Shown here: in pieces, positions 9,100 to 33,098 of the stretch
Layout of the letters: each line of letters starts with the position of its first letter
Position numbering within the stretch: position 1 is the stretch's first letter
NCBI GenBank assembly: GCA_963665075.1
Contig: OY762063.1
Coordinates: 2,539,045 to 2,603,044, forward strand
Source: Dehalococcoidia bacterium
GTDB taxonomy: Bacteria; Chloroflexota; Dehalococcoidia; Lucifugimonadales; GCA-2712585
Direction of reading: 5' to 3'
DNA length: 64,000 nt
Position numbers and translations under genes: made by a program
Notes under the pieces: model-generated
Database searches by the model: none
What the model was told of the DNA's origin: nothing
The model's input: the letters and a program-made list of their open reading frames with translations, nothing else

Positions 9100-9543
9100 T
9101 TAAACCTCCTTTTGTGTGAGAGCGTGAAGATAGTCGAGGGCGGCGAGGTAGCCCATCCAGCGCATTCCGGCGATGGTGGAGTCTACTGCGCGGGCGAAGA
9201 TGGAAGGGCTGCGCCAGGATTCGCGGGCGTAGATGTTGCTTAGGTGTACTTCCACCACGGGGACGCCGGAATCGATGCAGGCGTCGAGCAGTGGGTAGCC
9301 GACGGTGGTGAGTCCGGCGGGGTTGACGATGATGCCGTCGGCGCGGGAGGCGTTGTCGTTGATGAAGTCCACCAGTTCCGCCTCACTGTTGGACTGGCAG
9401 AATTTGAGGGCGACGCCGAGTTGGGCGGCGCGGTTGTTGAGGCGTTCTTCGATGTCGGCGAGGGTGGTTGTCCCGTAATGCTCGGGGTCTCTGCGCCCCA
9501 GCATATTGAGGTTCGGGCCGTTGACTACGAGGAAGGCGGTCAT
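9100..9543 (-). CDS. aroQ: 3-dehydroquinate dehydratase, type II
   Basis: VVNGPNLNMLGRRDPEHYG, FCQSNSEAELVDFI, IVNPAGLT and VEVHLSNIYARE. Confidence 0.92.
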   Translation of the reverse strand: MTAFLVVNGPNLNMLGRRDPEHYGTTTLADIEERLNNRAAQLGVALKFCQSNSEAELVDFINDNASRADGIIVNPAGLTTVGYPLLDACIDSGVPVVEVHLSNIYARESWRSPSIFARAVDSTIAGMRWMGYLAALDYLHALTQKEV

Positions 9544-10607
9544 TCTTCGTCCACCGAATCGGGGTTTCCGTTGGCCCTTGGGTGGCTGGCCATGTATACC
9601 TTCCTGGCCTGCCGCTGGGTGACGTGGGTGTATATCTGGGTGGTGGCGGGGCTGGAGTGACCGAGGAGTTCCTGGACGACGCGGAGGTCGGCGCCGCCTT
9701 CGAGCATGTGGGTGGCGAAGGTGTGGCGCATGCTGTGGGTGTGGGTTTTGGGGTTGATGGCGGACTGGCGGGCGGACTTCTTGACGATTTTCTGGATGCT
9801 GCGGGGGGAGAGGCGACCACCGTATTTATTGAGGAAGAGGGCGTTGGTTGGGGGGGCGCTCGACCCTTCGACAGGCTCAGGGTGAGCGGAGGATGTAGGG
9901 GCGCTCGACCCTTCGACAGGCTCAGGGTGAGCGGAGGATGTAGGGGTGCCAGGGTGAGCGGATGTGTAGAGTTGGGGTCTGGAGGCGGTCATGTAGCGGT
10001 GGAGGGACTGAACGGCGGGGCCGCCGAGGAGGACGATTCGCTCCTTGGAGCCTTTGCCGAAGACCTTGGCTTGTCGCGTTTCCAGGTCTACGTCGTCCAT
10101 ATTAAGGGCGGCGATCTCTGAGAGGCGGACGCCGGAGGAGTAGAGCAGTTCCAGGATGGCCTGGTCGCGGAGGCCGAGGTCGGTGTCGGTGTCGGGGGCT
10201 TGGAGGATTCGTTCCGTTTCGTTTTCGGTGAGGAAGTCTGGGAGGCGCTTTTCGGTCTTGACGCGGAAGGCGCTGCCCTTGGGGACGGGGTTGGTCTTGA
10301 CGATTCCTTCCTGCCGGAGGAAGCGGTAGAAGGCGCGGAGGGAGACGAGCTTGCGGGCGACGCTGACGCGGGCGTAGCCGCCGCGCTTGCCGCGGGCGCG
10401 GGTGGCGAGCCAGGCCAGATAGCGGCGGAGGAAGCGTCGGTCGAGTTGGGCGAAGTCGGCGTTTTCCATCTCAAGAAATCGGTTGAAGGTTGAGAGGTCG
10501 TCGAGATAGACGCGGACGGTGTTTTCGGACCGGCCTTTGGTTCCGATGAGGAAGGCTTTGTACTTGTCGAGGAGTTCTTGTGGGACTGCCATTTTCCATA
10601 CTTCCAT
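9540..10607 (-). CDS. Tyrosine recombinase, XerC/XerD-like, with a repeat-derived in-frame insertion
   Basis: The catalytic set is intact: RLSEIAALNMDDVD, HSMRHTFATHML and LLGHSSPATTQIYTHV. An insert of about 40 aa, TSSAHPEPVEGSSAP x2, lies in the catalytic-domain loop. Confidence 0.85.
   Translation of the reverse strand: MEVWKMAVPQELLDKYKAFLIGTKGRSENTVRVYLDDLSTFNRFLEMENADFAQLDRRFLRRYLAWLATRARGKRGGYARVSVARKLVSLRAFYRFLRQEGIVKTNPVPKGSAFRVKTEKRLPDFLTENETERILQAPDTDTDLGLRDQAILELLYSSGVRLSEIAALNMDDVDLETRQAKVFGKGSKERIVLLGGPAVQSLHRYMTASRPQLYTSAHPGTPTSSAHPEPVEGSSAPTSSAHPEPVEGSSAPPTNALFLNKYGGRLSPRSIQKIVKKSARQSAINPKTHTHSMRHTFATHMLEGGADLRVVQELLGHSSPATTQIYTHVTQRQARKVYMASHPRANGNPDSVDEE
9856..9968. repeat. 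Tandem 45-nt palindromic-repeat units (2 full copies plus 1 partial) inside the recombinase CDS
   Basis: gcgctcgacccttcgacaggctcagggtgagcggaggatgtagggg occurs at 9856-9900 and identically at 9901-9945, with a partial copy at 9947-9968. This is the same module A found in intergenic regions. Confidence 0.9.
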
Positions 10608-14317: not shown

Positions 14318-14409
14318 TGGCGGAGAGGGCGGGATTCGAACCCGCGAGGCCGGTTGCCCAGCCTACGCGCTCTCCAGGCGCGCCCATTCGTCCACTCTGG
14401 CACCTCTCC
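14318..14409 (-). tRNA. tRNA-Ser (anticodon GGA), CCA encoded
   Basis: GGAGAGGTGCCAGAGTGGACGAATGGG-CGCGC-CTGGAGA-GCGCG-long variable arm-GCGGGTTCGAATCCCGC-CCTCTCC-G-CCA. The 7-bp acceptor stem, type II variable arm and T-loop TTCGAATCC were folded by hand. Confidence 0.88.
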
Positions 14410-14614: not shown

Positions 14615-14704
14615 TGGCGGAGAGGGCGGGATTCGAACCCGCGATACGCGCAAACGTATACCGCTTTTCGAGAGCGGCGCCTTCGTCCACTCGGCCACCT
14701 CTCC
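14615..14704 (-). tRNA. tRNA-Ser (anticodon CGA), CCA encoded
   Basis: GGAGAGGTGGCCGAGTGGACGAAGGCG-CCGCT-CTCGAAA-AGCGG-variable arm-GCGGGTTCGAATCCCGC-CCTCTCC-G-CCA. The acceptor and T arms are identical to those of the neighbouring tRNA-Ser. Confidence 0.88.
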
Positions 14705-21261: not shown

Positions 21262-22965
21262 CTACCGCCGCCCGAATTGCCGCTCCAGGTTATGCGAGCT
21301 CAGGTGAAGCATGGTGGGCCGTCCGTGAGGGCATGTATGGGGGTTCTCCGCCTTCTCCAGTAGATTGATGATTTCCTGCATCTCCCGATGATCCAGGCTC
21401 ATCCCCGCTCGCACCGCGCTGTGGCAGGCGATGGACGCTGCCAGCGCTTCCCTGTATCCACCCAGGGATGATGCGTCGCGGCGGAGCATCTCCAGAACTT
21501 CCAGCAGCGCTTCCACGGGATCGCCCCGGCGGAATACGGCCGGCACCGCGCGCAGCACGTAGGATTCCCCGTCGAAGGAGTCCAGCTCGAAGCCGTAGGC
21601 CTTCATCTCCTCCGCGCCGTCCTTCACCAATTCCTGATACTCCGGCGCAAGCTCCACGGGTGCGGGTTCCAACAGCGCTTGCACCGACGGGCTGCCCCGC
21701 TTCATCTCCGCGACTATCTTTTCGTACAACACCTGCTCGTGGGCCGCGTGCTGGTCCATCAGGAAGATGCCGTTCGGCCCCTCCGCCACAATGTAGGTGT
21801 TCGACGCCTGTCCCAGTACCCGCAGAGCGGGGGATTCTACGGCCGGAGTGTGACCGTCGGTGTCACGCGTGGGCGCGGAGGCCGTTGGGCGCGACGCCAG
21901 CGGCGAGGTCACGAAGGAGGGTTGGAAGGTTGGCGCGCTTTCCGTGGGCGCTATCTGAATCTGCGGCACGGGCGCGGACCCAACCAGCGTCCCTCGGACG
22001 GCTCTCTGCACGGCGGAGAAGACCTGCGCCCCCTTTCGGAACCGCACTTCCGCCTTTGTCGGATGCACGTTCACGTCCACGTCTTCGTAGGGAAGATTGA
22101 CGTTCACCGCCGCCACGGGGTATCGACCCTGGGGAAGCAGCCCGTGATAGGACTCCTCCAGCGCCACGTTCAGCATCCGGCTCATCACCCATCGTCTGTT
22201 GACGAAGAAGGTCTTGTGGCGTCGATTGGAGCGGTGAAGCGAAGGCGGCCCGACGAAACCTTCGACCGATATTTGGCCGGTAGCGTCCTGCCATTCCACG
22301 GACAGCGCTTCCTTCGCCACCTGCGGCCCGTAGACGGATGCCAGCGCGTCTTCCGCCCGTCCGCTGCCCGTGAAGTTCAGCGAGTCGCGTCCGTCCACAG
22401 TCAGGTTGAAAGCAACGCTTGGGTAGGCCAGGATAAATCGCGAGATGAGGGTTCGGATGCGCCCGACCTCGGCGGCGTTGGAACGGAGAAACTTCCGACG
22501 GGCCGGCACGTTCTCAAACAAGCCCGCCACTGCTACCGACGTGCCGGAAGCGATGCCGATTGGCCCCTGACGCTCTATCCGGCCCCACTTCACCGCTACC
22601 TCCCAGCCGTTGGGGGAAGACTCCCGCCGGCTGGCCATATTCACGTTGGCGACGGACGCGATGCTCGGAAGGGCCTCGCCCCGAAACCCCAGGGTGCCGA
22701 TGCTGTCCAGGTCGGTCGCGTCGCCGAGCTTGCTGGTGGCGTGACGCTGGAAGGCCAGCGGCATCTCCTCCGCATCCATGCCGGAGCCGTTGTCAACGAC
22801 GCGGATGAGTTCAACGCCCCCTCCTTTCACGTCGATACGCACCCGCGTCGCGCCCGCGTCCAGGGAGTTCTCGATAAGCTCCTTGGCAACGGACACGGGG
22901 CGCTCCACCACCTCCCCGGCGGCTATCTTCGCGGCCAACTGCTCGGAAAGAAGCCTTATTGCCAT
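21262..22965 (-). CDS. mutL: DNA mismatch repair protein MutL (endonuclease type)
   Basis: AAGEVVERPVSVAKELIENSLDAG (GHKL ATPase). The C-terminal DQHAAHEQVLYE, ACHSAVRAG and CPHGRPT are endonuclease motifs. Confidence 0.93.
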   Translation of the reverse strand: MAIRLLSEQLAAKIAAGEVVERPVSVAKELIENSLDAGATRVRIDVKGGGVELIRVVDNGSGMDAEEMPLAFQRHATSKLGDATDLDSIGTLGFRGEALPSIASVANVNMASRRESSPNGWEVAVKWGRIERQGPIGIASGTSVAVAGLFENVPARRKFLRSNAAEVGRIRTLISRFILAYPSVAFNLTVDGRDSLNFTGSGRAEDALASVYGPQVAKEALSVEWQDATGQISVEGFVGPPSLHRSNRRHKTFFVNRRWVMSRMLNVALEESYHGLLPQGRYPVAAVNVNLPYEDVDVNVHPTKAEVRFRKGAQVFSAVQRAVRGTLVGSAPVPQIQIAPTESAPTFQPSFVTSPLASRPTASAPTRDTDGHTPAVESPALRVLGQASNTYIVAEGPNGIFLMDQHAAHEQVLYEKIVAEMKRGSPSVQALLEPAPVELAPEYQELVKDGAEEMKAYGFELDSFDGESYVLRAVPAVFRRGDPVEALLEVLEMLRRDASSLGGYREALAASIACHSAVRAGMSLDHREMQEIINLLEKAENPHTCPHGRPTMLHLSSHNLERQFGRR

Positions 22966-23011
22966 AACGCCGACACCTTCACGTCACAACCCCGATCGCC
23001 GCGGCATGACT

Positions 23012-23455
23012 TCAGGCGCGAACCAGGGGGCGAATATCGCCTTTGGCGCGGAAGTGGGCGTCGTCGGAGTGCCCTGTGTCGGCGAAGGCCGTTGCCGACG
23101 CCAAGACCCTTCCCATCGCCCCCTCGTCGTCGCCCTGCTTGTAGTAGGGTGGAACCCAGATGCCTCCGAAGGCCGACACCACCTGCGGGTCGTCGTCCAC
23201 GACGAAATCGGGCGGAAAGGGCAGCCCCAACTCCTCCAGCCGCTCCTCGTAGTCATACAGCGGCTTCTGGTACAGCCCGGACACGAGACCCTCCAAGTCG
23301 TGCCGACGGATAGTCTCCCGCCTGATCCCCATGCCGGACCAGACGTACACGCGGTGGCCCGATTCCGTCAGGGCGGTCATGGTCTCGCGGACGCCGGGAC
23401 GGAGCGAGTTGTCCATGCCCAGGATGGTCTGGTCTACGTCGAAGAAGATGTTCAC
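23012..23455 (-). CDS. HAD-superfamily hydrolase (small)
   Basis: Motif I FFDVDQT at the N-terminus and VVDDD near the C-terminal half; 147 aa. Confidence 0.65.
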   Translation of the reverse strand: MNIFFDVDQTILGMDNSLRPGVRETMTALTESGHRVYVWSGMGIRRETIRRHDLEGLVSGLYQKPLYDYEERLEELGLPFPPDFVVDDDPQVVSAFGGIWVPPYYKQGDDEGAMGRVLASATAFADTGHSDDAHFRAKGDIRPLVRA

Positions 23456-23469
23456 CGGGCTATGGGCGG

Positions 23470-23826
23470 CTATGCCGACGCCAGAACGGCGTCGATGGCC
23501 TTCTTGCCGCCGCCCACAATCAGCGTGTCTCCGACCCGGAACATCGGACGTCGGATGAGCCGGGGTTCCTGGGACATCAACCGGACCAGGTCTTGCGGCT
23601 CAAGGCTGTCCTTGTCCAAGTTCAGCTTGCGGAAGCTGGGGCTTCGCCACGAGAAGACTTCCGAGGGTGGAGCCAGCGTCAGAAGTTCCTCGATTTCAGC
23701 CTCCGATAGGGGGTCTTTGAAGAAGTCCCGCTCCTCGAATTCCAGTCCATGCTGCGAGAGCAACTCTCTCGCCTTGCGGCAGGAGCTTCAACGCGCCCAC
23801 CAGTAGTAGGTAATCTGCTGTGCCAT
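23470..23826 (-). CDS. ArsC/Spx/YffB-family thioredoxin-fold protein with an in-frame UGA (probable selenocysteine, U13)
   Basis: From ATG 23826 (AAGGAGA RBS upstream) the frame reads MAQQITYYWWAR-TGA-SSCRKARELLSQHGLEFEERDFFKD... The TGA at 23788-23790 aligns with the N-terminal catalytic Cys of the family. A SECIS-like hairpin lies 15 nt downstream. The product is 118 aa, typical for the family. Confidence 0.72.
23754..23772 (-). promoter_or_regulatory. Putative bacterial SECIS hairpin
   Basis: On the mRNA strand: GCGAGAG-AGUUG-CUCUCGC, a perfect 7-bp stem whose loop contains GU. It starts 15 nt after the UGA. Confidence 0.55.
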
Positions 23827-23869
23827 GCTTTCTCCTTTTGCGATTGGTTGTTGTGTCAAATAAGGTCAG

Positions 23870-26452
23870 TTAGCCCGCTTCCTTGGCCATCGATTGAAGC
23901 TCGTACAGCTTGTTGATGGCCTCCAGGGGCGTCATGTTGGTCACGTCCAGCTTGAGAAGCTCCTCCACCAGCGGCGGCGTAACGGAAAAGAGCGGGATCT
24001 GCTGGTGGCTTTGCGACGGCGGGCCGGCGCCGTTTGACTGAGGCAGGGATTCCAGGGTCTCCAGGATCTCCCACGCCCTATGGACGACGGTTTGGGGGAG
24101 TCCCGCCAGCTGGGCCACGTGGACGCCGTAGCTTCTGTCGGCGCCGCCGGGAACGATGCGATGCAGGAACACCAACTGTCCGCCGCTTTCGCTGACGGCG
24201 ACGGTGTGGTTCTGCACTCGCGGGAGGCTCTCGGCAAGCTGCGTAAGCTCGTGGTAGTGGGTGGCGAACAGGGTGCGGCAACCCATCTTCGGGTCGTTGT
24301 GGATGTGCTCCGCCACCGCCCTCGCGATGGACAACCCGTCGTAGGTGCTGGTGCCCCGTCCTATTTCGTCCAGAATCACCAGTGAGCGTTGGGTGGCCTG
24401 GTTCAGGATTGCCGCCGTCTCCACCATCTCCACCATGAAGGTGGACTGCCCGGCGGCCAAATCGTCCTGCAAGCCGACGCGGGTGAAGATGCGGTCCGCC
24501 ATGCCTATGGTGGCGGAGTCGGCGGGTACGAAGCTGCCGATTTGCGCCATTAGGGTGATGAGCGCGGCCTGGCGGATGTAGGTGGACTTGCCGGACATGT
24601 TGGGGCCGGTGATGAGAAGAAGCTGAGATTCCTCCGACGATAGATGCAGGTCGTTGGGCACGAAGGCGCCGGCGGGCAGGATTCGCTCCGCCATCGGATG
24701 ACGGCCGCCCTTGACTTCCAGAACGGGTTCTTCCACCAGGTTGGGTCGGACGTAGCCGTAGTTGTCGGCGGCTTCCGCAAAGGAGGTCAGGACGTCGGTG
24801 AGGGCGATGCCGTGGGCCAGTTCGAGAATTCCTTTTGCCTCTTGTCCGACTTGGGCGCAGATTCGCGAATAGAGGTCCTGCTCCAACCGCTGGATCCGTT
24901 CCTGGGCGTCCAGTATGCGCGCCTCGTAGCCCTTCAGCTCAGGAATGATGAACCGCTCCCCGTTGGTGAGGGTCTGCCGCCGTTCGTAACTGCTCGGCAC
25001 TTGGTGGAGGTTCGTCTTCCTGACCTCGATGTAGTAGCCGAATACCCGGTTGTAGCCGACTTTCAGTGAGCGGATGCCGGTGGATTCCTTCTCCCGACGC
25101 TCCAGTCCGGCGATGAACCGGCGGGCCTCGCGCACCGAGGCGCGCAGTTCGTCCAGTTCCTCGGAGAACCCCTCCTTCAGCACTTCGCCGTCGCCGGGGC
25201 TGCCGGTGGCGTCTTCCTTCAATGCCCCCTCCAGCAGGTCTTCCAAATCGTAAAAGGAACGGAATCGCCCGTTGAGCCATCCCTCGGTTTCTTCCCCTTC
25301 TAGCAATGGCGAAATAGCCGAAGACGCGCGCAGGCTTTCCTTCAGGGCGAGCAGGTCGCGGGGGGGAGCCGACCCCAGCCGAACGCGGCTCATTATCCGC
25401 TCCAGGTCGGAGATTCGCGAGAGGTGGGAGCGAATTTCCTGCCTTCTCAACAGGTTGGAGTGGAAGTAAGCAGTGCCGTCCAGACGACGTTCAAGGTCGT
25501 CCATGTTGAGAAGCGGCTGGCCGATCCATCGGCGCAGGAGCCGCGCGCCCATCGCCGTGCGGGTGAAGTCCAGCGTTCCAAGGAGGGAGTGACCGCCTTC
25601 GCCCCAACGCCCGCCGTCGAAGAGTTCCAGGTTGCGCCGGCTCTGCGGGTCGAGCGTCATGTACTCCGTGACGGAGTAGGTCCTGAGGGAAGTTACCTGT
25701 CCCAAAATCTGCGATTGGGTTTCGCCCAGGTATCCCAGAATCGCGCCCGCGCTGCCAACGGCAAGGGGCAAGTTGTCGCATCCGTAGGCTTCCAGGGTCA
25801 GCGCTCCGAAATGGGACAGCAGAACTTCCCTGGCTCTGGAAGCGATGAACTCTTTGGGTGGAAGTGGCACGGACATGTCTACGTTCAATTCCGTGAAGTC
25901 GTCGCCGCCTTCGGGGACGAGAAGCTCGGCGGGGGAGAGACGATTTATCTCCGAGGGCAGATGACTCAGAGGCAGCTGCGCTACGGCGAACTCCCCCGTC
26001 GTGATGTCGATGTACGCCAAGCCCGCCTCCGCGCCTTCCACCTGCAGGGCGGCCAGGTAGTTGTTGGATTCCTGCTCCAGCATTGCGGGTTCAACCACCG
26101 TGCCGGGGGTGACGACGCGCACCACGTTTCTATCGACTATGCCCTTGGAGGCGGCGGGATCGCTCAACTGCTCGCAGATGGCTACCCGGTGGCCGGCTTC
26201 GATGAGCTTCGCCAGGTAGGATTCAACGGAATGGGCGGGAATGCCGGCCATTGGAACCCGGACGCCCTTCCCCATGCTTCGCGACGTGAGGACGATGTCG
26301 AGAACCTGGGCGGCGAGCTTGGCGTCGTCGTCGAAGGTCTCGTAGAAGTCGCCGAGGCGAAATAGAAGGATGGCGTTGGGATAACGCTGCTTGATGCTGA
26401 GGTATTGGCGGCGAATGGGAGTCAATGGAATTCTTCCTGTCTGTAGTGGCAT
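23870..26452 (-). CDS. mutS: DNA mismatch repair protein MutS
   Basis: TPIRRQYLSIKQRYPNAILLFRLGDFYETF, Walker A GPNMSGKSTYIRQ and DEIGRGTSTYDG. ATG 26452 (MPLQTGRIPL) is preferred over the listed start at 26539. Confidence 0.94.
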   Translation of the reverse strand: MPLQTGRIPLTPIRRQYLSIKQRYPNAILLFRLGDFYETFDDDAKLAAQVLDIVLTSRSMGKGVRVPMAGIPAHSVESYLAKLIEAGHRVAICEQLSDPAASKGIVDRNVVRVVTPGTVVEPAMLEQESNNYLAALQVEGAEAGLAYIDITTGEFAVAQLPLSHLPSEINRLSPAELLVPEGGDDFTELNVDMSVPLPPKEFIASRAREVLLSHFGALTLEAYGCDNLPLAVGSAGAILGYLGETQSQILGQVTSLRTYSVTEYMTLDPQSRRNLELFDGGRWGEGGHSLLGTLDFTRTAMGARLLRRWIGQPLLNMDDLERRLDGTAYFHSNLLRRQEIRSHLSRISDLERIMSRVRLGSAPPRDLLALKESLRASSAISPLLEGEETEGWLNGRFRSFYDLEDLLEGALKEDATGSPGDGEVLKEGFSEELDELRASVREARRFIAGLERREKESTGIRSLKVGYNRVFGYYIEVRKTNLHQVPSSYERRQTLTNGERFIIPELKGYEARILDAQERIQRLEQDLYSRICAQVGQEAKGILELAHGIALTDVLTSFAEAADNYGYVRPNLVEEPVLEVKGGRHPMAERILPAGAFVPNDLHLSSEESQLLLITGPNMSGKSTYIRQAALITLMAQIGSFVPADSATIGMADRIFTRVGLQDDLAAGQSTFMVEMVETAAILNQATQRSLVILDEIGRGTSTYDGLSIARAVAEHIHNDPKMGCRTLFATHYHELTQLAESLPRVQNHTVAVSESGGQLVFLHRIVPGGADRSYGVHVAQLAGLPQTVVHRAWEILETLESLPQSNGAGPPSQSHQQIPLFSVTPPLVEELLKLDVTNMTPLEAINKLYELQSMAKEAG

Positions 26453-26496
26453 TGTACCTGAAAGAGAAGAGGAGGGAAACGCCCGGCCCGTGAAAA

Positions 26497-26526
26497 TTGA
26501 CTTTCGGAGAAATGCGTACCTATAAT
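26497..26526 (+). promoter_or_regulatory. Sigma-70-like promoter (TTGACT-18 nt-TATAAT)
   Basis: ttgact at 26497-26502 and tataat at 26521-26526, about 100 nt upstream of the 26628 CDS. AT-rich hexamers of this kind are rare in this GC-rich window. Confidence 0.55.
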
Positions 26527-26627
26527 GCGGCATTCTCAACAGGCGCGCGCGCCTTCAGACTGCTGTTGTTTCGAGGCTTTGCATTCGAGAGCCGAAGTCA
26601 GCATTACTAGCATATAGGAGGTAACCC

Positions 26628-27194
26628 ATGGAAATAGTCTTTTTGATGGTATTGCCCGCAACTCTTTGGGCCCAATCCTGGTATTTCCTGGACCTGTACA
26701 ACAACACGAAGACCCTTGGAGTGATGGCCGCGGCGGCGGCGATAATTCTGGGGGGAATGGTGATTTTCACGGGAGGGAGCTTCACCGCCCTGATTGGCGG
26801 GCCGCCGGAAGTGGCCGACGTGGGCGCCGTCCTTTCAACCTTCATAGCCCTCTGGGTTGTCTACCTCGCCATGCTGGCGGGGGTTCACCTGGGAGGGTTC
26901 GACGAGCGGACGCTGGGGCTTTACTCCCTGTTCCTCTCGGTGGTTTCCATCATCTACACGGTCTACTTCTTCGCGGGAGGGGAGATTCTTGGCGGCGCCC
27001 AGGTCGGCTACCTGATGCACTGGCCGCTGGCCATCGTGTCGGCGATGCTGGCGGTGTTCGCGCTGCTGGTCTTCTTCCACCTGGCGCCGCCCTATCCGAG
27101 GCTGCGGTACGTCACAGGCTGGTACACGCTGGTAATTTCCATCGTGACCACCATCCTGGCCGGCCTCATTCTTCTCGGAGTTTCCGTCTACTAA
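26628..27194 (+). CDS. Polytopic membrane protein, possibly an AmiS/UreI-family channel
   Basis: 188 aa with about 6 hydrophobic segments. The length, and blocks such as LGLYSLFLSV...FFAGG and the C-terminal ...ILAGLILLG, resemble AmiS by eye. The family call is tentative. Confidence 0.45.
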   Translation: MEIVFLMVLPATLWAQSWYFLDLYNNTKTLGVMAAAAAIILGGMVIFTGGSFTALIGGPPEVADVGAVLSTFIALWVVYLAMLAGVHLGGFDERTLGLYSLFLSVVSIIYTVYFFAGGEILGGAQVGYLMHWPLAIVSAMLAVFALLVFFHLAPPYPRLRYVTGWYTLVISIVTTILAGLILLGVSVY

Positions 27195-27245
27195 CGACGT
27201 TGCCCGGAACTACGGGCATGGAAGCGGCAGCAGTTTGACATAAGC

Positions 27246-27275
27246 GAAGGGGCCTCCAAAGTTGGAGGCCCCTTC
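27246..27275. terminator. Bidirectional terminator hairpin between convergent genes
   Basis: Perfect 14-bp arms gaaggggcctccaa / ttggaggccccttc separated by ag. Confidence 0.65.
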
Positions 27276-27297
27276 CTGGCGTGCGACGAGTCTTGCG

Positions 27298-28029
27298 CTA
27301 CTGCTTCCAGAAGCGCTCTTCCTTGACGTTGAAGCCTTTGGGGCCCAGCCGCTCCTTCACGTCTTCAATCATGCCGGGATGTCCGCAGGCGTAGACCAGC
27401 GTGGAAGCAGGCTCCAGCCCCAGCTTCGCTATCTGATCTTCGACGATTTCGTTCGCGCGGCCTGAGGCGCCCGTCCAGCCGTCGTTCTTCGCTTCGCCGG
27501 GGCGGCTTACCGTTGGGATGAACGTGACGGTGTCGGGATGGTCGGCCTGCATCTCCTCCAACTCTTTATCGTAGACGAATTCGTCCTGGTAGCTGGCCCC
27601 TTCCAGCACGTAGAAGCGGTGTCCCTCGCCCTGGCGGTGGAAGTAGCTTCTGAGCATGCTGATGAAGGGCGCGACGCCGGTGACGGTGGCGACCATGAGG
27701 TGGGAGTTGTACTTTTCGTCCAGGGTGAAGATGCCCTTGCACCGGGGACGAATGGTCATGGTGTCGCCCTCCTTCATCTTCCACATCAGGGGAGTCAGCG
27801 CGCCGTCGGGATAGGGCACTAGCTCCACGAAGATCTCCAGGTCTTCTTCGTGGGGAGCCGAGACGATGGAGTAGGCCCGTTCGATGCCTTCCAGTCCCAG
27901 GGTGCAGTATTGGCCGGGCTTGAACGGCATTGCCGATTCCGGCCTCATCTTGATTATCATCAGGTCTTCGGTGATGTCCTTCCGCTCCACCAGAGCGGCT
28001 GTGGGCAGGCTTACCTGTCTGCGCGCCAT
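27298..28029 (-). CDS. Ferredoxin--NADP(+) reductase (FNR/Fpr type)
   Basis: FAD site RAYSIVS, NAD(P) site LMVATVTGVAPFISMLR, and C-terminal ACGHPGMIEDV...FWKQ. Confidence 0.85.
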   Translation of the reverse strand: MARRQVSLPTAALVERKDITEDLMIIKMRPESAMPFKPGQYCTLGLEGIERAYSIVSAPHEEDLEIFVELVPYPDGALTPLMWKMKEGDTMTIRPRCKGIFTLDEKYNSHLMVATVTGVAPFISMLRSYFHRQGEGHRFYVLEGASYQDEFVYDKELEEMQADHPDTVTFIPTVSRPGEAKNDGWTGASGRANEIVEDQIAKLGLEPASTLVYACGHPGMIEDVKERLGPKGFNVKEERFWKQ

Positions 28030-28071: not shown

Positions 28072-30888
28072 TTACGATTCTACCTTGACGAGCCGGGCTG
28101 CGGCGATGTTCAACCCGGCAATCTGCGACATGGGGTCCGGGGATTGGCTAGCCTCTACTTCGACCATTAGCTGACCGAATAGCTGGGTGGAGGATACCAC
28201 GCCCCGCTGAAGCCCATCTTTGAAGGCGACTCTTCCCTGGAGGTTGAAGCCGTTGGTCTCCAGTTGCACTTTCACCAAGTCGCCCTCGCGGAGGCCCAGA
28301 ATCCGGCCGTCGTCCCTGTGCAGTTCGATTATCTCCTCTCGCTCAATGCGGTTGGATAGTCCCTTGACGACGGTCATCTCCCTTTCGGACTGGAGGAGTA
28401 CCCTTCCGGGAGCGAATAGCAGAGGGAAAGCCGCATCCTCAGCCAGTTCGGTCTTGCGATAGCCGGGTATGGGAATCCGCGGCTTGGCGCCCTCGAAGCC
28501 GTTGGCGAAGAGAATCTCCACGCCGGAGCTTTCGGCGTCGGGGCAGGGCCACTGGATGCCGTGATACTCCTTGTCGGAGTAGAGCACCTGGGTTGGGAGC
28601 GGGTTGCCCACGTCGGGCCGGAAGACCAGCTTCCCCTCGTCCTCGAGTCTACGATGGCTGACGCCGCCGTATATCGGTGAGACGCGGGCTATTTCGTCCA
28701 TAACCGCGGCGGTGTCGGGGAAATCGAAGCCCTTTGCGCCCATGCGCTGCGCCAACTGGCAGATTGCCCATGACTCCGGCTTGGCGTCGGTGTTCTTGGG
28801 GGATATTATGGGCCTCACCGACTGGATGCGGCGTTCCAGATTTGTGTACGTCCCGGTCTTCTCGGCGAAGGTGCTGCGGGGCAGGACAACGTCCGCCCGT
28901 TGAGCGGCGGCGCCGAGGAAGGTGTCCTGGACGACGAGGAAGTCAAGGGCTTCCAGCGCGGCAATGGCGTCTGCGCCTGGATTCGGCAGGTCGCCAACAA
29001 GGAATAGGGCTTTGACTTGACCGGTCCGGAGAATATCACGTTGGCCCAATCCCGATGCATTCGGAATTTCCGTGGGCCATTCTTGCTCTATGCGCTCTCG
29101 TGCTTCGTCATCGTCAAGGGAAGCGAATCCGGGAAGGTGGGTGGGAACGCAGCCGACGTCCCACGCGCCCTGGCTGTTGGCGCCGGGCTTTAGCGGGTAG
29201 ATGCCGGCGGCGGGCTTGCCCACGCTGCCCGTCAGCAGGGAGAGGGCAGTGAGGGCGTAGACGCAATCCTTGTGCAGCGTATCCGGCACGTTGTCCATGC
29301 CGTAAACGATGGAGGAGGGGTCGGCGGGCCCGTAGATTCGGATGGCGGCGTCGATCATATCCTTGGAGATGCCCGTTTGCGCCGAAATCTCCGCCATCTC
29401 CAGCGACGCCATTGCTTCACGTAAGTCGTCCAGGCCGTCGCAGTTTTCGTACAGCCACTCGCGGCGCTCCAATCCCTGATGCAGCAGCGACTTGACCAGT
29501 CCGTTCAGCAGCAGAAGCTCGGTGCCGGGCTTGGGCCGCAGCCACAAGTCGGCGTACCGGGTTAGCTCAACCTCGCGGGGGTCGATGACGATGAGCTTCG
29601 CGCCTTCCTTGACGGCCCGCTTGATGGGCACTGCCGCCACGTTGTGCTCCTCGGTGACGTTGGCGTTGAAGACGAGGATGCATTCCGCGTTCTCCAAGTC
29701 CCAGATGGGATTGGTGGCTGCGCCGAAGCCCAAGACTTCGTGGAGGGCCTTCACCGCTTCCGGCTGGGTGTTGGACGTGTAGTCCACGTTGTTGCTGCTC
29801 ATCACGACGCGGGAGAATTTCTGGGCTAGGTAGTGTTCCTCGTTGGCGCTGTCCGACGCCGATAGCATGGCGAAGGAATCGCCTCGGTATTCGCTTAGTC
29901 GCTCTGCGACGTATTCCAGGGCTTCGTCCCAGGTGGCTTTCTCCAGTGAGCCGTTACGCCTGATGAGGGGAGTCTTCAGACGCTTCTTGTCGTTGACGAA
30001 GTCCAAGCCGAACTTGCCCTTGAAGCAGCCTTGCCCCCGATTGGCGGGAGAGCTGATTTCCGGCACGGAGCGGACGACTTTCTCGAAGCGGTTCACTTCG
30101 AGATTAAGCTGGCAGCCGACGGGGCAGTGGGGGCAGATGGTGCGCTCTACCTGCTGCGCCTTCTCCCACTTGTGGTCGCTCTCCACCAGTGCTCCGACGG
30201 GGCAAACGTCCAGGCAGGCGCCGCAGAACTCGCAGCCGGATTCGAGGAGGGACGTGCCGGCGGAAGTGCCGACTAAGGCTTGTCCGGCGCGTTCGGTGAA
30301 GGTGATGGCATTGTCGCCGCGTACTTCTTCGCAGATGCGGACGCAGCGTCCGCACACGATGCAAAGGTTGTAGTCCCGGTCGTAGAAGGGATCGCCCGTC
30401 TCCACGGGCAGGTCGCGGTACTTGTACTCCAGCGGCGATTCCATCTCCATGCCAAGATAGCGGACGGTGTCCTTGAGCTCGCAGCGCTCGTTCTTGGGGC
30501 AGGTGACGCATCGGTCGTTGACGGACACGTGGCGCAGGCAAACATCCTGCGGGCCGCACAGGTCCACCCGGTGGCAGGTCAGGCACCCGTGGGGATGGTC
30601 GGCAATCAGCAGTTCCATCACGTCCCTGCGAAGCTCGTGCACCTGGCTGCTGTTGTTCCGCACCTTCATGCCTTCGGCGACGGGCAGGGTGCACGACGCC
30701 GGAAAGCCGCGTCCGTTCTCCACCTCGACGACGCACATTCGGCAGGCGGCGAAGGGCTTCATGCCGGGGTGATAGCAGAGGTAGGGGATGTAGATGCCCG
30801 CCTCTATGGCGGCTTCCAGCACCGTCTGGTCGCGGCGCGCCTTGACCTCTACGCCGTCGATGGTGATGGTTACGCGGTCTTCGGCCAT
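28072..30888 (-). CDS. NAD-linked formate dehydrogenase catalytic (molybdopterin) subunit, NuoG-like N-terminus
   Basis: N-terminal 2Fe-2S and 4Fe-4S Cys clusters, then CPHCPVGCQLNLEV (Mo-bisPGD 4Fe-4S). RGQGCFKGKFG has Cys at the Sec/Cys Mo-ligand position. ATG 30888 follows GGAGG. Confidence 0.88.
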   Translation of the reverse strand: MAEDRVTITIDGVEVKARRDQTVLEAAIEAGIYIPYLCYHPGMKPFAACRMCVVEVENGRGFPASCTLPVAEGMKVRNNSSQVHELRRDVMELLIADHPHGCLTCHRVDLCGPQDVCLRHVSVNDRCVTCPKNERCELKDTVRYLGMEMESPLEYKYRDLPVETGDPFYDRDYNLCIVCGRCVRICEEVRGDNAITFTERAGQALVGTSAGTSLLESGCEFCGACLDVCPVGALVESDHKWEKAQQVERTICPHCPVGCQLNLEVNRFEKVVRSVPEISSPANRGQGCFKGKFGLDFVNDKKRLKTPLIRRNGSLEKATWDEALEYVAERLSEYRGDSFAMLSASDSANEEHYLAQKFSRVVMSSNNVDYTSNTQPEAVKALHEVLGFGAATNPIWDLENAECILVFNANVTEEHNVAAVPIKRAVKEGAKLIVIDPREVELTRYADLWLRPKPGTELLLLNGLVKSLLHQGLERREWLYENCDGLDDLREAMASLEMAEISAQTGISKDMIDAAIRIYGPADPSSIVYGMDNVPDTLHKDCVYALTALSLLTGSVGKPAAGIYPLKPGANSQGAWDVGCVPTHLPGFASLDDDEARERIEQEWPTEIPNASGLGQRDILRTGQVKALFLVGDLPNPGADAIAALEALDFLVVQDTFLGAAAQRADVVLPRSTFAEKTGTYTNLERRIQSVRPIISPKNTDAKPESWAICQLAQRMGAKGFDFPDTAAVMDEIARVSPIYGGVSHRRLEDEGKLVFRPDVGNPLPTQVLYSDKEYHGIQWPCPDAESSGVEILFANGFEGAKPRIPIPGYRKTELAEDAAFPLLFAPGRVLLQSEREMTVVKGLSNRIEREEIIELHRDDGRILGLREGDLVKVQLETNGFNLQGRVAFKDGLQRGVVSSTQLFGQLMVEVEASQSPDPMSQIAGLNIAAARLVKVES

Positions 30889-30892
30889 CGGG

Positions 30893-32605
30893 TTACCTCC
30901 GTACGCGGGTGGGGGAATGCCACAGGCCAGGGCAGGTTCCCGTGGGGCAAACTTTGTCATTCAAGTGTTGGTCGAATTCTTCCCGGAAATAGCGCACCGC
31001 CGAGGACACGGGATTGAATCCCAGCTGCCCGTGGCCGCATAGGGACCCGGCCTGCATACTGCGCCCTACGCGGCCCATGAGGGCCATGTCTTCGGGAGTG
31101 CTGTCCATCCGACAGATGCGCTCCAGCACCTCCAGCAGGTGGGTCATTCCGGTGCGGCAGGGGAAGCACTTGCCGCAGGACTCGTACTGGCAGAAGGCGA
31201 TTAACGCGCGGGTAAGGTCTACGACGCAGGCGTCTTCGCTGGCGGCGATGAGTCCGCCGGAACCCAGAATCGCCCCCGCCTTTGACATGGCGTCGAAGTC
31301 GAGGGCAATGTCCAAGTCGTCGGCGCTGAGGACGCCGCCGAGAGGCCCGCCGGTCTGCAATAGCTTGAGATCTTTGCCGTCTGGGACGCCGCCGCCCATC
31401 TGCTCAACCACTTGCCGCAGGGTCATGCCCATCGGCACCTCGGCCATGCCGGTGTAGGCCAGGTCTCCCGAGAGGCAGAGGATGGCGGTGCCGGTGCTGC
31501 GGTCCTGACCGATTCCGGCGAACCACTGGCCGCCGTTGAGGACAATCTGGGGAACGTAGGCGAGGGTCTTCACGTTGTTGATGTTGCTTGGCTTGCCGAA
31601 CAGCCCTATCTGGGCAGGGAAGGGCGGACGGAAGCGAGGCATCGCCCTCTTGCCCTCGATGGACTCCATCAGGGCGGTTTCCTCGCCGGCGACGTAGGAG
31701 TCGCCGGTGAGGGAAACTTCCATGTCGAAGCAGAAGTTGGAGCCGAAGATGTTGCGTCCCAGGATACCCAACTGTTTCGCCTGCTCGATGGCGCGCCAGG
31801 TGCGGTCGATAGGCCCGTCGTGTCCGTGGCGGATGAAGACGTAGCCCATAGTCGCGCCGGTGGCGTAGCCCGCCAGGATTACGCCTTCTATGAGGCTGTG
31901 GGGGTCGCTTTCCAGGATGCCTTTGTCGTTGAAGGCGCCGGGGTCGCCTTCCTCGCAGTTGACGAGGATGTACTTGACGGGGCTGTTGGCGCCGGCGAGG
32001 AAGTTCCACTTCATCCCCGTTGGGAAAGCCGCGCCTCCCCTACCCCTCAGTCCGGAATCGCTGACCTCCTGCCGCACCTCGTCCGGCGTCATCTCAGTCA
32101 GCGCCTTGTGCAGGGCCGCGTAGCCGTCGTTGGCCACGTACTGGTGGATGTCCATTGGGTCAACCTGTCCGGCGTTGCGAAGGGCGATGCGGCGCTGCGG
32201 CTTCATCATCGGATGGTCCCACAGGGAAGGGATGCTGCCGTTCAGGTGATTGCCCACGGCGCCGAGGGCTGCATCGGCCAGAGGTTGTCCTTCCAGCAGG
32301 TGTTCATCGACGATGCGGGTTGCCAATTCGGGCGTCACGTTGCGGTAGACGACGCGGGAGCCGTCAGGCATTGACACGTCCACCAGCGGCTCGGCGAAGC
32401 AGGGGCCGAGGCATCCGACCTCGCTGACCATTGCGCTGACGCGCTTCTGGTCCATCCGCTCGACGAGCGCGGCGATAACGGCGTCGGCTCCCGCGGCCTT
32501 GCCGCAGAGAGCGGCGCCAATTCTAATCCAGGGACGGGTTCCCGATGTCAGCCCCCGCCACCGGTCAAGGCCCTGCTCCCTGATTTCTTCGAAGCTAGGA
32601 GGCAA
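30893..32605 (-). CDS. NuoF-like NAD/FMN/4Fe-4S subunit of formate dehydrogenase
   Basis: SGLRGRGGAAFPTGMKWNF (FMN/NADH site) and ESCGKCFPCRTG. The start is ambiguous: TTG 32605 after GGAGGA, or the listed 32662, which overlaps the upstream gene by 68 nt. Confidence 0.86.
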   Translation of the reverse strand: MPPSFEEIREQGLDRWRGLTSGTRPWIRIGAALCGKAAGADAVIAALVERMDQKRVSAMVSEVGCLGPCFAEPLVDVSMPDGSRVVYRNVTPELATRIVDEHLLEGQPLADAALGAVGNHLNGSIPSLWDHPMMKPQRRIALRNAGQVDPMDIHQYVANDGYAALHKALTEMTPDEVRQEVSDSGLRGRGGAAFPTGMKWNFLAGANSPVKYILVNCEEGDPGAFNDKGILESDPHSLIEGVILAGYATGATMGYVFIRHGHDGPIDRTWRAIEQAKQLGILGRNIFGSNFCFDMEVSLTGDSYVAGEETALMESIEGKRAMPRFRPPFPAQIGLFGKPSNINNVKTLAYVPQIVLNGGQWFAGIGQDRSTGTAILCLSGDLAYTGMAEVPMGMTLRQVVEQMGGGVPDGKDLKLLQTGGPLGGVLSADDLDIALDFDAMSKAGAILGSGGLIAASEDACVVDLTRALIAFCQYESCGKCFPCRTGMTHLLEVLERICRMDSTPEDMALMGRVGRSMQAGSLCGHGQLGFNPVSSAVRYFREEFDQHLNDKVCPTGTCPGLWHSPTRVRR

Positions 32606-33098
32606 CGTCGTCCTCCGGGGAAAGCCCGTTCCTGAGTCCGTTGAGAACTTGACGCGCCTCATCCGGCGTCATTCTGCCCATCAGATGATGATCGACGCTG
32701 ATTACGGGCCCGTTGGCGCAAGCCCCGAGACAGGTGTTGAAGCGAAGGCTCACGTTGCCGTCCCTGGTTGAGCCTTCCTCCTCGATACCCAGGGTCTGCA
32801 TGACCTCACGGATGACGGGCATGACGCCCTTGACGTGGCAGGTGGGGCCCCAGCACACCTCCACCCTGTGACGACCCGGTGGCTGAAACTGGAAGTTCGT
32901 GTAGAAGGACGCCACGCCCCAAACGTCGTTGATGGTGGAGCCGGTGACGCGGGCCACCTCCTCGGCGGCCTCCGGTGGGATATAGCCCAACTCGTCCTCC
33001 ACTGCCAACAGGCATGAAAGGACGGTTACGGTTTCGGGCTTCTGCTCCCTGATGGCTTGGGCGGCCCGTTGTCTCAGAACGCCGGAATTTGCGGTCAC
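32595..33098 (-). CDS. NuoE-like 2Fe-2S subunit of formate dehydrogenase
   Basis: LLAVEDELGYIP, VCWGPTCHVKG and CLGACANGPV are the NuoE-family Cys motifs. Confidence 0.86.
   Translation of the reverse strand: MTANSGVLRQRAAQAIREQKPETVTVLSCLLAVEDELGYIPPEAAEEVARVTGSTINDVWGVASFYTNFQFQPPGRHRVEVCWGPTCHVKGVMPVIREVMQTLGIEEEGSTRDGNVSLRFNTCLGACANGPVISVDHHLMGRMTPDEARQVLNGLRNGLSPEDDVAS

What the first reader, a model, noticed from the sequence alone, without database searches (positions are those of the whole stretch)
23470..23826. ArsC/Spx/YffB-family gene with UGA at the catalytic-Cys position and a downstream SECIS-like hairpin: a probable selenoprotein truncated by ORF calling
The ORF track starts this gene at TTG 23763, which leaves a thioredoxin-fold protein without its N-terminal redox motif. 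I read upstream by hand in the same frame.
- From ATG 23826 the sequence is MAQQITYYWWAR-TGA-SSCRKARELLSQHGLEFEERDFFKD.
- AAGGAGA lies upstream of that ATG.
- The TGA at 23788-23790 lies where family members carry the nucleophilic Cys. Compare E. coli YffB ...LYGIKNCDTCKKARKWLE..., recalled from memory. This gives a U-x-x-C motif.
- Fifteen nt after the UGA the mRNA forms a perfect 7-bp hairpin, GCGAGAG-AGUUG-CUCUCGC (23754-23772). That is the position expected for a bacterial SECIS.
- The restored protein is 118 aa, the normal size for this family.
- TGA is used as an ordinary stop elsewhere in the window (for example dnaG and the fused CoA-transferase), so a genome-wide codon reassignment is unlikely.

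The gene sits between mutS and a HAD hydrolase/mutL on the same strand, which is an unusual neighbourhood. ArsC-like selenoproteins have been predicted in marine metagenomes, so the family is not new, but this locus would be mis-annotated by standard pipelines.
Basis: partly seen in the sequence, partly recalled or inferred. Interest (0 to 1): 0.8.

Follow-up and report, generated by a model that had tools for sequence, protein, structure and literature searches.

The report
Selenocysteine Spx/ArsC-like redox protein gene
A small thioredoxin-fold gene between mutS and mutL carries an in-frame UGA with a conserved downstream hairpin in 80 related Dehalococcoidia genomes, so it very probably encodes a 118-residue selenoprotein that gene callers cut to 97 residues. 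Selenoproteins of this general kind are already known.

Summary
On the minus strand an ORF runs from ATG 23826 through TGA 23790-23788 to TAG 23472-23470 (118 codons).

- **Active-site position.** The TGA aligns with Cys10 of the Spx C10-x-x-C13 motif, giving U-S-S-C.
- **Conservation.** The 80 related genomes examined (all Dehalococcoidia/SAR202 MAGs, one per species) and the window itself all have TGA at this codon, never TAA, TAG or a Cys codon. The 8 codons upstream vary in a coding pattern.
- **Hairpin.** The 7-bp hairpin 15 nt after the UGA pairs in 99% of cells, and three of its pairs show compensatory changes. It meets all four published bacterial SECIS criteria.
- **Cys homologues.** More distant full-length homologues carry CxxC at the site.
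- **TGA elsewhere.** TGA is an ordinary stop for 14 of 40 long ORFs in the window.
- **Second gene.** A DsbA-like gene (42206-42841, minus strand) also has a conserved UGA plus hairpin. This argues that the genome decodes Sec.

selA, selB, selD and tRNA-Sec could not be checked, because only 64 kb is available.

The family (ArsC/Spx-like UxxC selenoproteins) was reported from ocean metagenomes in 2008. This clade falls below the cut-off of the curated model for it. It lacks Spx Gly52 and the Spx C-terminal tail, so a selenol/thiol oxidoreductase is more likely than an RNA polymerase regulator.

Verdict: a real, mis-annotated selenoprotein gene and a new member of a known kind.

The parts
23470..23826 (-). 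Full coding sequence of the Spx/ArsC-like selenoprotein: 118 residues including Sec13, plus the TAG stop
   Evidence: Translation. Pfam ArsC PF03960, E 1e-14, over residues 8-112. Spx structures, E 1e-19, over residues 4-106. tblastn matches to residues 1-118 in related genomes.
23831..23837 (-). Shine-Dalgarno-like AAGGAGA, 4 nt before the ATG
   Evidence: Read from the sequence. 77 of 81 sequences have an in-frame start with an SD-like motif 11-15 codons before the TGA.
23788..23790 (-). In-frame TGA, predicted Sec codon (residue 13, first position of U-S-S-C)
   Evidence: TGA at this codon in 81 of 81 sequences. It aligns with Cys10 of B. subtilis Spx and with Cys in 29 of the 34 longer cluster representatives read.
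23779..23781 (-). TGC codon for Cys16, the predicted resolving cysteine of the UxxC motif
   Evidence: T and G of this codon are invariant in alignment A2 (columns 13 and 14). The Cys is present in all 81 translations.
23754..23772 (-). Predicted bacterial SECIS hairpin: 7-bp stem, 5-nt loop AGUUG, -10.4 kcal/mol, loop starting 22 nt after the UGA
   Evidence: RNAalifold predicts the same helix. 99% of cells pair, and 3 pairs have compensatory changes in 52 cells. The G at loop position 2 is invariant. Energies are and the criteria.
23761..23763 (-). TTG taken as the start by ORF callers (97-residue truncated product); it lies in the SECIS loop
   Evidence: ORF list. P0001 and most database relatives are 88-106 residues, with differing called starts.
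23870..26539 (-). mutS, immediately upstream (43-nt gap); probably the same transcription unit
   Evidence: Pfam MutS domains I-V. Adjacent in 64 of 80 related loci. No terminator-like site between the genes.
23012..23455 (-). Small HAD-like ORF, 14 nt downstream
   Evidence: Only a weak match to a Cof-type HAD N-terminal motif, E 1.8e-4. Adjacent in 57 of 80 loci.
21262..22965 (-). mutL, downstream
   Evidence: Pfam DNA_mis_repair, MutL_C and HATPase_c_3. Present in 59 of 80 loci.

Best explanation
The locus encodes a 118-residue thioredoxin-fold protein of the ArsC/Spx superfamily. Its active-site motif is Sec13-Ser-Ser-Cys16.

**Decoding (inferred).** During translation, the hairpin that starts 15 nt after the UGA (a bacterial SECIS) recruits SelB carrying GTP and Sec-tRNA(Sec). 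The UGA is therefore read as selenocysteine instead of stop.

**Protein chemistry (inferred).** The selenolate lies at the N-terminus of helix alpha-1. It acts as the nucleophile and forms a selenenylsulfide with Cys16, which cellular thiol reductants reduce again.

**Role.** The protein lacks Spx Gly52 and the Spx C-terminal tail. It also falls below the arsenate-reductase model cut-off. It most likely works as a small selenol/thiol oxidoreductase or redox sensor of unknown substrate, not as a classical RNA polymerase-binding Spx or an arsenate reductase. It is probably co-transcribed with mutS, a HAD-like gene and mutL.

**Shown:** the UGA position, its conservation, the coding signature on both sides, hairpin covariation, Cys homologues and fold.
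**Inferred:** Sec insertion itself, the redox cycle, the substrate and the operon.
For: - **ORF and motif.**
- **Family.** Pfam ArsC scores 55 bits against a cut-off of 24. The best NCBIfam models are Spx/MgsR. Spx structures match at E 1e-19, with the UGA opposite Cys10.
- **Conservation of TGA.** 81 of 81 sequences (the window plus 80 species-level Dehalococcoidia/SAR202 genomes) have TGA at the site. P0030's 'W' at the site is also TGA in the DNA.
- **Coding signature upstream.** Variability by codon position over the 8 codons upstream of the TGA is 0.23/0.19/0.35. Downstream it is 0.25/0.16/0.42. 77 of 81 sequences have a start with an SD-like motif.
- **Hairpin.** 99% of cells pair, 52 cells carry double compensatory changes, and no shuffle out of 500 reached the observed percentage paired, number of compensatory cells or covariation score. 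Slid controls pair in 37-67% of cells, and RNAalifold finds the same helix.
- **bSECIS rules all met.** The loop is 5 nt, the stem 7 bp, G is at loop position 2, the loop starts 22 nt from the UGA, and the energy is -10.4 kcal/mol.
- **Cys homologues.** The Cys homologue P0051 has TGC and no comparable hairpin. 29 of the 34 longer cluster representatives read carry CxxC at the site.
- **TGA as stop.** TGA ends 14 of 40 long ORFs in the window.
- **Second candidate.** An independent UGA-plus-hairpin gene (DsbA-like) lies in the same window. Its TGA is kept in 6 of 6 close relatives and is Cys in distant ones.
- **Lineage.** Dehalococcoidia MAGs rank among the most selenoprotein-rich bacteria (PMC13326102).
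- **Fold.** An AlphaFold model of the Cys homologue (pLDDT 84.8) matches Spx and YffB at TM 0.81-0.85.
Against: - **Sec machinery not seen.** No selA, selB, selD or tRNA-Sec was found in the 64-kb window, and no tRNA-Sec in the 60 related loci scanned. This is expected for about 2% of a genome, but it leaves the machinery unverified.
- **No Rfam hit.** No Rfam SECIS family matches.
- **Single-sequence energy.** It is not unusual (z = -0.66).
- **Weaker hairpins in some relatives.** 15 of 81 hairpins, taken as the isolated 19-nt stem-loop, are weaker than -7.5 kcal/mol.
- **Model cut-offs.** The protein scores below the curated cut-offs of NF041106 (35 against 85) and TIGR01617 (69.2 against 75.05).
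- **Function.** The functional assignment rests on motif and fold only. No substrate or partner is known.
Confidence: 0.88

Rival explanations
1. The TGA is a true stop. The functional product is the 97-residue protein starting at TTG 23763, perhaps with a 12-codon upstream leader peptide, and the hairpin is a regulatory or coupling element.
For: This is what ORF callers and all public annotations give. The Sec machinery was not observed.
Against: - The stop is always TGA, never TAA or TAG, in 81 of 81 sequences.
- The upstream codons are conserved at the protein level (YWW[AP][RK]), and they align with strand beta-1 of Spx.
- The called downstream starts differ between relatives, giving products of 70-106 residues. 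No downstream start is conserved.
- The truncated product would lack strand beta-1 and the CxxC helix start of the fold.
- Full-length Cys homologues exist.
Confidence: 0.03
2. The UGA is recoded, but not to selenocysteine. Examples are Cys inserted by a tRNA-Sec-like tRNA(Cys) with a SelB-like factor, or near-cognate read-through by tRNA-Trp or tRNA-Cys. The product would then be an ordinary CxxC or WxxC protein.
For: The sequence data show recoding signals but cannot tell which amino acid is inserted. The machinery genes were not available. From my own knowledge, SECIS-dependent Cys insertion has been proposed for some bacteria; I did not check this in the library.
Against: - The hairpin meets the SelB-type bSECIS rules.
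- The lineage is reported as rich in selenoproteins.
- A second gene in the window has the same architecture, at a redox site typical of Sec.
- TGA is a normal stop elsewhere, so there is no genome-wide reassignment.
Confidence: 0.04
3. The protein is a genuine Spx-type global regulator in which Sec replaces Cys10. It binds the RNA polymerase alpha-CTD and switches transcription on oxidation.
For: The best sequence and structure matches are to Spx. The UxxC motif lies at the Spx redox switch. The score is just under the Spx/MgsR subfamily cut-off (69.2 against 75.05).
Against: - The alignment to Spx places a two-residue gap at Asp51-Gly52. From my own knowledge, Gly52 is required for alpha-CTD binding.
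- At 118 residues the protein lacks the Spx C-terminal tail of about 13 residues.
- The score against the Spx model NF002459 is 74, against a cut-off of 123.
- The YffB fold match is as good as the Spx match (TM 0.83-0.85).
- From my own knowledge, characterised Spx proteins come from Firmicutes.
Confidence: 0.12
4. The TGA is a sequencing or assembly error, or the gene is a pseudogene.
For: None beyond the presence of an in-frame stop.
Against: The same TGA occurs in 80 independently assembled genomes and in short metagenome contigs. Both flanks show purifying selection.
Confidence: 0.005

Closest known systems
'Arsenate reductase 2' selenoproteins of the Global Ocean Sampling survey (cd03032, UxxC; Zhang and Gladyshev 2008, PMC2398784). 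A 2026 review (PMC13188914) lists them as 'Arsenate reductase-like protein', NCBIfam NF041106.
   Same: ArsC-superfamily fold, UxxC motif with Sec in the first position, marine metagenomic origin, and prediction by Sec/Cys pairing plus bSECIS.
   Different: The window protein scores only 35.2 bits against NF041106 (cut-off 85) and scores higher against the Spx models. It is therefore a separate clade by NCBI's criterion. A fixed position between mutS and mutL is not mentioned in the passages I read.
Bacillus subtilis Spx (PDB 1z3e, 3gfk, 7f75), the Spx/MgsR subfamily TIGR01617
   Same: Best sequence match (E 1e-19 over residues 4-106), with the same C/U-x-x-C position, RSxxF and LxRRP motifs. 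Best Foldseek match for the Cys homologue, TM 0.81.
   Different: Sec instead of Cys10. A two-residue deletion removes Asp51-Gly52. There is no C-terminal tail (118 against 131 residues). The score is below the family cut-offs. The host phylum is Chloroflexota.
Sargasso Sea 'arsenate reductase' selenoproteins (Zhang, Fomenko and Gladyshev 2005, PMC1088965) and ArsC TIGR00014
   Same: Same Pfam/COG superfamily (COG1393), with Sec at the nucleophile position and a downstream SECIS that has a G in a small loop.
   Different: Those proteins carry UxxS; this one carries UxxC. The score against TIGR00014 is 44.6 against a cut-off of 106.
YffB (PA3664, PDB 1rw1), ArsC-family reductase NF008107
   Same: Comparable fold match, TM 0.83-0.85, and similar length.
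   Different: The sequence match is weak (E 1.2e-5; 28.9 bits against a cut-off of 121). The one YffB-like representative read here, P0259, has CxxV rather than CxxC.

Membership tests
Bacterial selenoprotein gene (Sec-UGA plus bSECIS) | In-frame UGA aligned with a conserved Cys of homologues (Sec/Cys pair) | tested here: met
   UGA lies opposite Cys10 of Spx. P0051, P0118 and P0119 have CSTC. 29 of the 34 longer cluster representatives read have CxxC at the site.
Bacterial selenoprotein gene (Sec-UGA plus bSECIS) | UGA, not UAA or UAG, conserved among orthologues, with coding conservation on both sides | tested here: met
   81 of 81 sequences have TGA. Third-position variability is highest both upstream and downstream, and 77 of 81 sequences have an upstream start with an SD-like motif.
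Bacterial selenoprotein gene (Sec-UGA plus bSECIS) | bSECIS: 3-9-nt apical loop, 4-16-bp stem, G in the first two loop positions, 16-37 nt from UGA to loop, MFE of -7.5 kcal/mol or lower (PMC13188914) | tested here: met
   The window hairpin has a 5-nt loop AGUUG, a 7-bp stem, a 22-nt spacing and -10.4 kcal/mol. The helix is supported by covariation. 66 of 81 sequences pass the energy rule for the bare hairpin.
Bacterial selenoprotein gene (Sec-UGA plus bSECIS) | Genome encodes selA, selB, selD and tRNA-Sec | not testable with these tools
   Only 64 kb of the genome is available, and none of these genes lies in it. Indirect support comes from a second UGA-plus-hairpin gene in the window and from the Dehalococcoidia selenoproteomes in BSepDB.
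Bacterial selenoprotein gene (Sec-UGA plus bSECIS) | Selenium found in the protein | not testable with these tools
   This needs 75Se labelling or mass spectrometry.
Pfam ArsC family PF03960 | Score above the gathering threshold | tested here: met
   55 bits against a cut-off of 24, over residues 8-112.
Spx/MgsR RNA polymerase-binding regulators (TIGR01617, NF002459) | Score above the curated cut-off | tested here: not met
   69.2 against 75.05 for TIGR01617, and 74.3 against 123 for NF002459.
Spx/MgsR RNA polymerase-binding regulators (TIGR01617, NF002459) | N-terminal CxxC redox switch | tested here: met
   U-S-S-C aligns with C10-T-S-C13.
Spx/MgsR RNA polymerase-binding regulators (TIGR01617, NF002459) | Gly52 contact to the alpha-CTD, and the C-terminal tail used for ClpXP/YjbH control (both features from my own knowledge) | tested here: not met
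   The HMMER alignment puts a gap opposite Asp51-Gly52 of Spx. The protein ends at residue 118, against 131 in Spx.
Glutaredoxin-coupled arsenate reductase ArsC (TIGR00014) | Score above the curated cut-off | tested here: not met
   44.6 against 106.05.
ArsC family (seleno)protein NF041106 (ArsC_rel_Se_1) | Score above the curated cut-off | tested here: not met
   35.2 against 85. The UxxC motif is shared.

The most novel reading that the evidence does not exclude
The gene is held between mutS and mutL (with a HAD-like gene) across Dehalococcoidia whose MutS proteins are only 52-92% identical. It could therefore be a selenium-dependent redox switch or repair factor functionally tied to mismatch repair. 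It might, for example, sense or reverse oxidation of MutS or MutL, or couple oxidative stress to mutation-rate control. That would go beyond a generic oxidoreductase.
Probability: 0.08. Interest if true: 0.65.

Novelty: new member of a known kind. Interest (0 to 1): 0.4.

Why it matters
**Annotation.** Public entries for this gene are truncated and lose the active site. This holds for the 10 NCBI-sourced protein clusters. The gene was found in 366 Dehalococcoidia/SAR202-type genomes, and in the 80 examined the TGA that causes the truncation is present every time. A family model that allows U at residue 13 would correct these entries. The same applies to the DsbA-like gene at 42206-42841.

**Biology.** The gene adds a well-supported Spx-like UxxC selenoprotein to a lineage now recognised as selenoprotein-rich. 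The 80-genome alignment gives a clean example of a SECIS with covariation inside a coding region. The conserved mutS-gene-HAD-mutL arrangement is a testable lead to function. None of this changes what is known about how selenoproteins work.

Tried and rejected
- **Rfam.** Neither the gathering scan of the window nor a permissive scan of 23650-23860 gave a SECIS family hit. From my own knowledge, Rfam's bacterial SECIS models are each built for particular selenoprotein families, so the negative result is not informative.
- **Single-sequence folding.** The z-score was -0.66, so it does not discriminate. I relied on covariation instead.
- **tRNA-Sec.** ARAGORN found only tRNA-Ser and tRNA-Lys genes in the window and 60 related loci.
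- **Sec machinery.** A Pfam scan of about 40 long ORFs in the window found no SelA, SelB or SelD.
- **Structure prediction.** I modelled the Cys homologue P0051 instead.
- **Other read-through candidates.** A scan for TGA read-through candidates with high GC3 on both sides gave only antisense-frame noise and neighbouring genes in the same frame. The hairpin-filtered scan gave the two genes reported here. I set aside its six other rows without checking them further.
- **Literature.** A search for SAR202 with selenoprotein found nothing. A search for Spx with selenocysteine and ArsC found nothing specific. PMC12013261 is not held. BSepDB has no supplements held as text, so I could not see whether this exact clade is already listed there.
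- **P0030.** I first considered it a Trp variant at the Sec site. Its DNA has TGA there, and the entry shows W, probably from a table-4 style gene call.

Full report
**1. The observation.**
Read on the minus strand, window 23826-23470 is one frame: ATG GCA CAG CAG ATT ACC TAC TAC TGG TGG GCG CGT TGA AGC TCC TGC CGC AAG ... TAG.
- AAGGAGA lies at 23837-23831, 4 nt before the ATG.
- The in-frame TGA is at 23790-23788.
- The stem-loop GCGAGAG-AGUUG-CUCUCGC is at 23772-23754 and starts 15 nt after the TGA.
- The mechanical ORF list starts the gene at TTG 23763, which lies in the hairpin loop, and gives 97 residues.

**2. Family.**
With U replaced by C, the 118-residue protein matches Pfam ArsC (PF03960, 55 bits, cut-off 24) over residues 8-112. 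The best NCBIfam models all fall below their cut-offs:
- Spx NF002459: 74.3 bits, cut-off 123.
- Spx/MgsR TIGR01617: 69.2 bits, cut-off 75.05.
- True arsenate reductase TIGR00014: 44.6 bits, cut-off 106.
- 'ArsC family (seleno)protein' NF041106: 35.2 bits, cut-off 85.

Against solved structures the best hits are B. subtilis Spx entries (E 1.1e-19, residues 4-106). The TGA lies exactly opposite Cys10 of the C10-T-S-C13 switch.

An AlphaFold model of the Cys-containing homologue P0051 has a mean pLDDT of 84.8, with a beta-alpha-beta start and the CxxC at the N-terminus of helix 1. Foldseek matches it to Spx (TM 0.81) and to YffB (TM 0.83-0.85), then to other ArsC-family structures.

**3. Is the UGA conserved?**
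A protein search returned 119 relatives. Nearly all are 70-106 residues long and cover only the C-terminal ~80% or less of the query. Their called starts differ. This is the signature of a family-wide in-frame stop.

A scan of one genome per species found 366 genomes with a relative. The best 80 are all Dehalococcoidia, SAR202 or 'Chloroflexota' MAGs, and tblastn matches run over residues 1-118, across the stop. Extracting the codon gave these results:
- 81 of 81 sequences (80 loci plus the window) have TGA there, never TAA, TAG, TGC or TGT.
- The upstream peptide is conserved as [FYL]-Y-[WT]-W-x-[RK]-U-x-x-C-[RK]-K.

Over the 8 codons before the TGA, the fraction of non-consensus bases by codon position is 0.23/0.19/0.35. 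For 80 downstream codons it is 0.25/0.16/0.42. This is the same third-position-rich pattern. In addition, 77 of 81 sequences have an in-frame start with an SD-like motif 11-15 codons upstream.

One apparently full-length relative with Trp at the site (P0030) has TGA in its DNA.

True Cys forms exist further out:
- P0051 has TGC, and no comparable hairpin follows it.
- An exhaustive phmmer search of 1.84 billion cluster representatives gave 344 hits. I read 34 of the longer ones, and 29 carry CxxC at the aligned site.

**4. The hairpin.**
The counts are as follows:
- 99.0% of cells form standard pairs. Sliding the 3' partners by 1-3 columns gives 37-67%.
- Three pairs show compensatory double changes: C-G to U-A or G-C, G-C to A-U, and G-C to A-U. 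These account for 52 cells.
- None of 500 shuffles reached the observed percentage paired, number of compensatory cells or covariation score.

Some of these changes alter the protein (Ala to Val, Ser to Leu) and still keep the pairing, so the helix is not a by-product of the peptide sequence. The G at loop position 2 is invariant.

The published bacterial SECIS model requires four things (PMC13188914): a 3-9-nt loop, a 4-16-bp stem, a G in the first two loop positions, and 16-37 nt between the UGA and the loop with an MFE of -7.5 kcal/mol or lower. The window element has a 5-nt loop AGUUG, a 7-bp stem, a 22-nt spacing and -10.4 kcal/mol. Across the family, 66 of 81 bare hairpins pass the energy rule.

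Rfam has no matching family. The single-sequence z-score is unremarkable.

**5. Can this genome decode Sec?**
- TGA is an ordinary stop for 14 of 40 long, high-GC3 ORFs in the window, dnaG among them. Genome-wide reassignment is therefore excluded.
- No selA, selB, selD or tRNA-Sec lies in the 64 kb, and the related loci scanned hold no tRNA-Sec. This is the main untested point.
- A scan for other UGA-plus-hairpin ORFs gave eight rows, one of them the gene under study. I followed up one other, a DsbA-like gene on the minus strand (ATG 42841, TGA 42802-42800, TAG 42208-42206). AAGGAGG lies upstream of its ATG. Its motif is DYT-U-PFV, and a hairpin CGCAAC-GGUCUG-GUUGCG starts 14 nt after the UGA. 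The Pfam DSBA match runs across the UGA.
- Six of six metagenome relatives of that gene (42-75% identity) keep the TGA. More distant relatives have Cys in FFDYNCGYC. The hairpin is retained with base changes in three of the five distinct relative sequences folded.
- Two Dehalococcoidia MAGs are in the published top ten of selenoprotein-rich bacteria, with 49 and 46 genes (PMC13326102).

**6. Context.**
The window is a housekeeping chromosomal stretch. It holds clpP, purN, xseA, efp, a xerC/D-like gene, topA, dnaG, rpoD, mutL, mutS, an NAD-type formate dehydrogenase cluster, ftsY and rnc.

The gene lies 43 nt after mutS and 14 nt before a small HAD-like ORF, which mutL follows. No terminator-like site lies between them. 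This order is kept widely:
- MutS is adjacent in 64 of 80 related loci, at 48-92% identity to the window's MutS (52-92% for matches not cut short by a contig end).
- The HAD-like ORF is present in 57 loci.
- MutL is present in 59 loci.
- An FNR-like reductase gene upstream of mutS is present in 58 loci.

The 16 loci without this context belong to two sequence subgroups, YWWKR-U-SSC and YTWAR-U-STC. In the four of these loci that I examined the neighbours differ; two of them lie next to a gene with an S18-like RRKVCGFC motif, preceded in one by an Ssb-like gene, judged by eye.

**7. Mechanism and function.**
The evidence meets the standard computational criteria for a bacterial selenoprotein gene. 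I put that part at about 0.9.

Function is inferred. The U-x-x-C at the start of helix 1 of a thioredoxin-like fold is the arrangement of redox selenoproteins (PMC1088965). The likely chemistry is a selenolate nucleophile with Cys16 resolving it to a selenenylsulfide.

I favour an oxidoreductase or sensor role over a true Spx regulator for four reasons:
- The alignment deletes Spx Asp51-Gly52. From my own knowledge, Gly52 is needed for alpha-CTD binding.
- The Spx C-terminal tail is absent.
- The family cut-offs are missed.
- The YffB fold fits equally well.

I disfavour arsenate reductase because of the low TIGR00014 score.

**8. Comparison with what is known.**
- ArsC-superfamily selenoproteins were reported from the Sargasso Sea (UxxS, 14 sequences).
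- The GOS survey reported 'Arsenate reductase 2, cd03032, UxxC', with 42 Sec and 238 Cys sequences. From my own knowledge, cd03032 is the ArsC_Spx model.
- A 2026 review equates the latter with NF041106.

The kind is therefore known. This clade is below the NF041106 cut-off and closer to the Spx models. I found no paper naming SAR202 selenoproteins or a Sec-containing Spx. I could not query BSepDB itself.

**9. Verdict.**
It is a new member of a known kind, with moderate interest of 0.4. The conserved mutS/mutL neighbourhood is the only unusual aspect, and the Sec machinery of this genome is the main missing test.

Noticed in passing
window 42206-42841, minus strand (TGA 42802-42800): A second probable selenoprotein gene. 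It is DsbA-like and 211 residues long, with the motif DYT-U-PFV, so it has no resolving Cys. AAGGAGG precedes the ATG. A hairpin CGCAAC-GGUCUG-GUUGCG starts 14 nt after the UGA. The ORF caller gives only 188 residues, from TTG 42772. The TGA is kept in 6 of 6 metagenome relatives (L083-L088). Distant relatives L089-L092 have Cys.
   Followed up: partly
window 21262-28029, minus strand; loci L001-L079: The gene order FNR-like reductase, mutS, Sec gene, HAD-like ORF, mutL is conserved in 57-64 of 80 Dehalococcoidia genomes, down to about 52% MutS identity. 16 loci from two sequence subgroups lack this context; the four of them examined have other neighbours.
   Followed up: partly
window 28072-33098, minus strand: An NAD-type formate dehydrogenase-like cluster. 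The alpha subunit (962 residues, 28072-30960) carries a NuoG-like N-terminus and is uninterrupted, so it is not a Sec form at the usual site. A NuoF-like ORF (30893-32662) and a NuoE-like 2Fe-2S ORF (32595-33098) follow. The residue at the position of Sec140 in FdhF was not checked.
   Followed up: no
L081 295-648 (ENA contig of P0030); P0121 and P0246: The public protein entry P0030 shows Trp where its DNA has TGA (checked in L081). The likely cause is a gene call on short metagenome contigs with a TGA=Trp table. This can disguise selenoproteins as full-length 'W' proteins. P0121 and P0246 also show W at the site, but their DNA was not read.
   Followed up: partly
window 14318-14409 and 14615-14704, minus strand: Two tRNA-Ser genes (anticodons GGA and CGA) lie about 200 nt apart. 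ARAGORN calls both. Rfam reaches its gathering score only for the second.
   Followed up: no
window 9540-10607, minus strand: A tyrosine recombinase (phage-integrase family with an N-terminal SAM-like domain) lies next to topA. It is most simply a XerC/D-type chromosomal recombinase. No mobile element was looked for.
   Followed up: no
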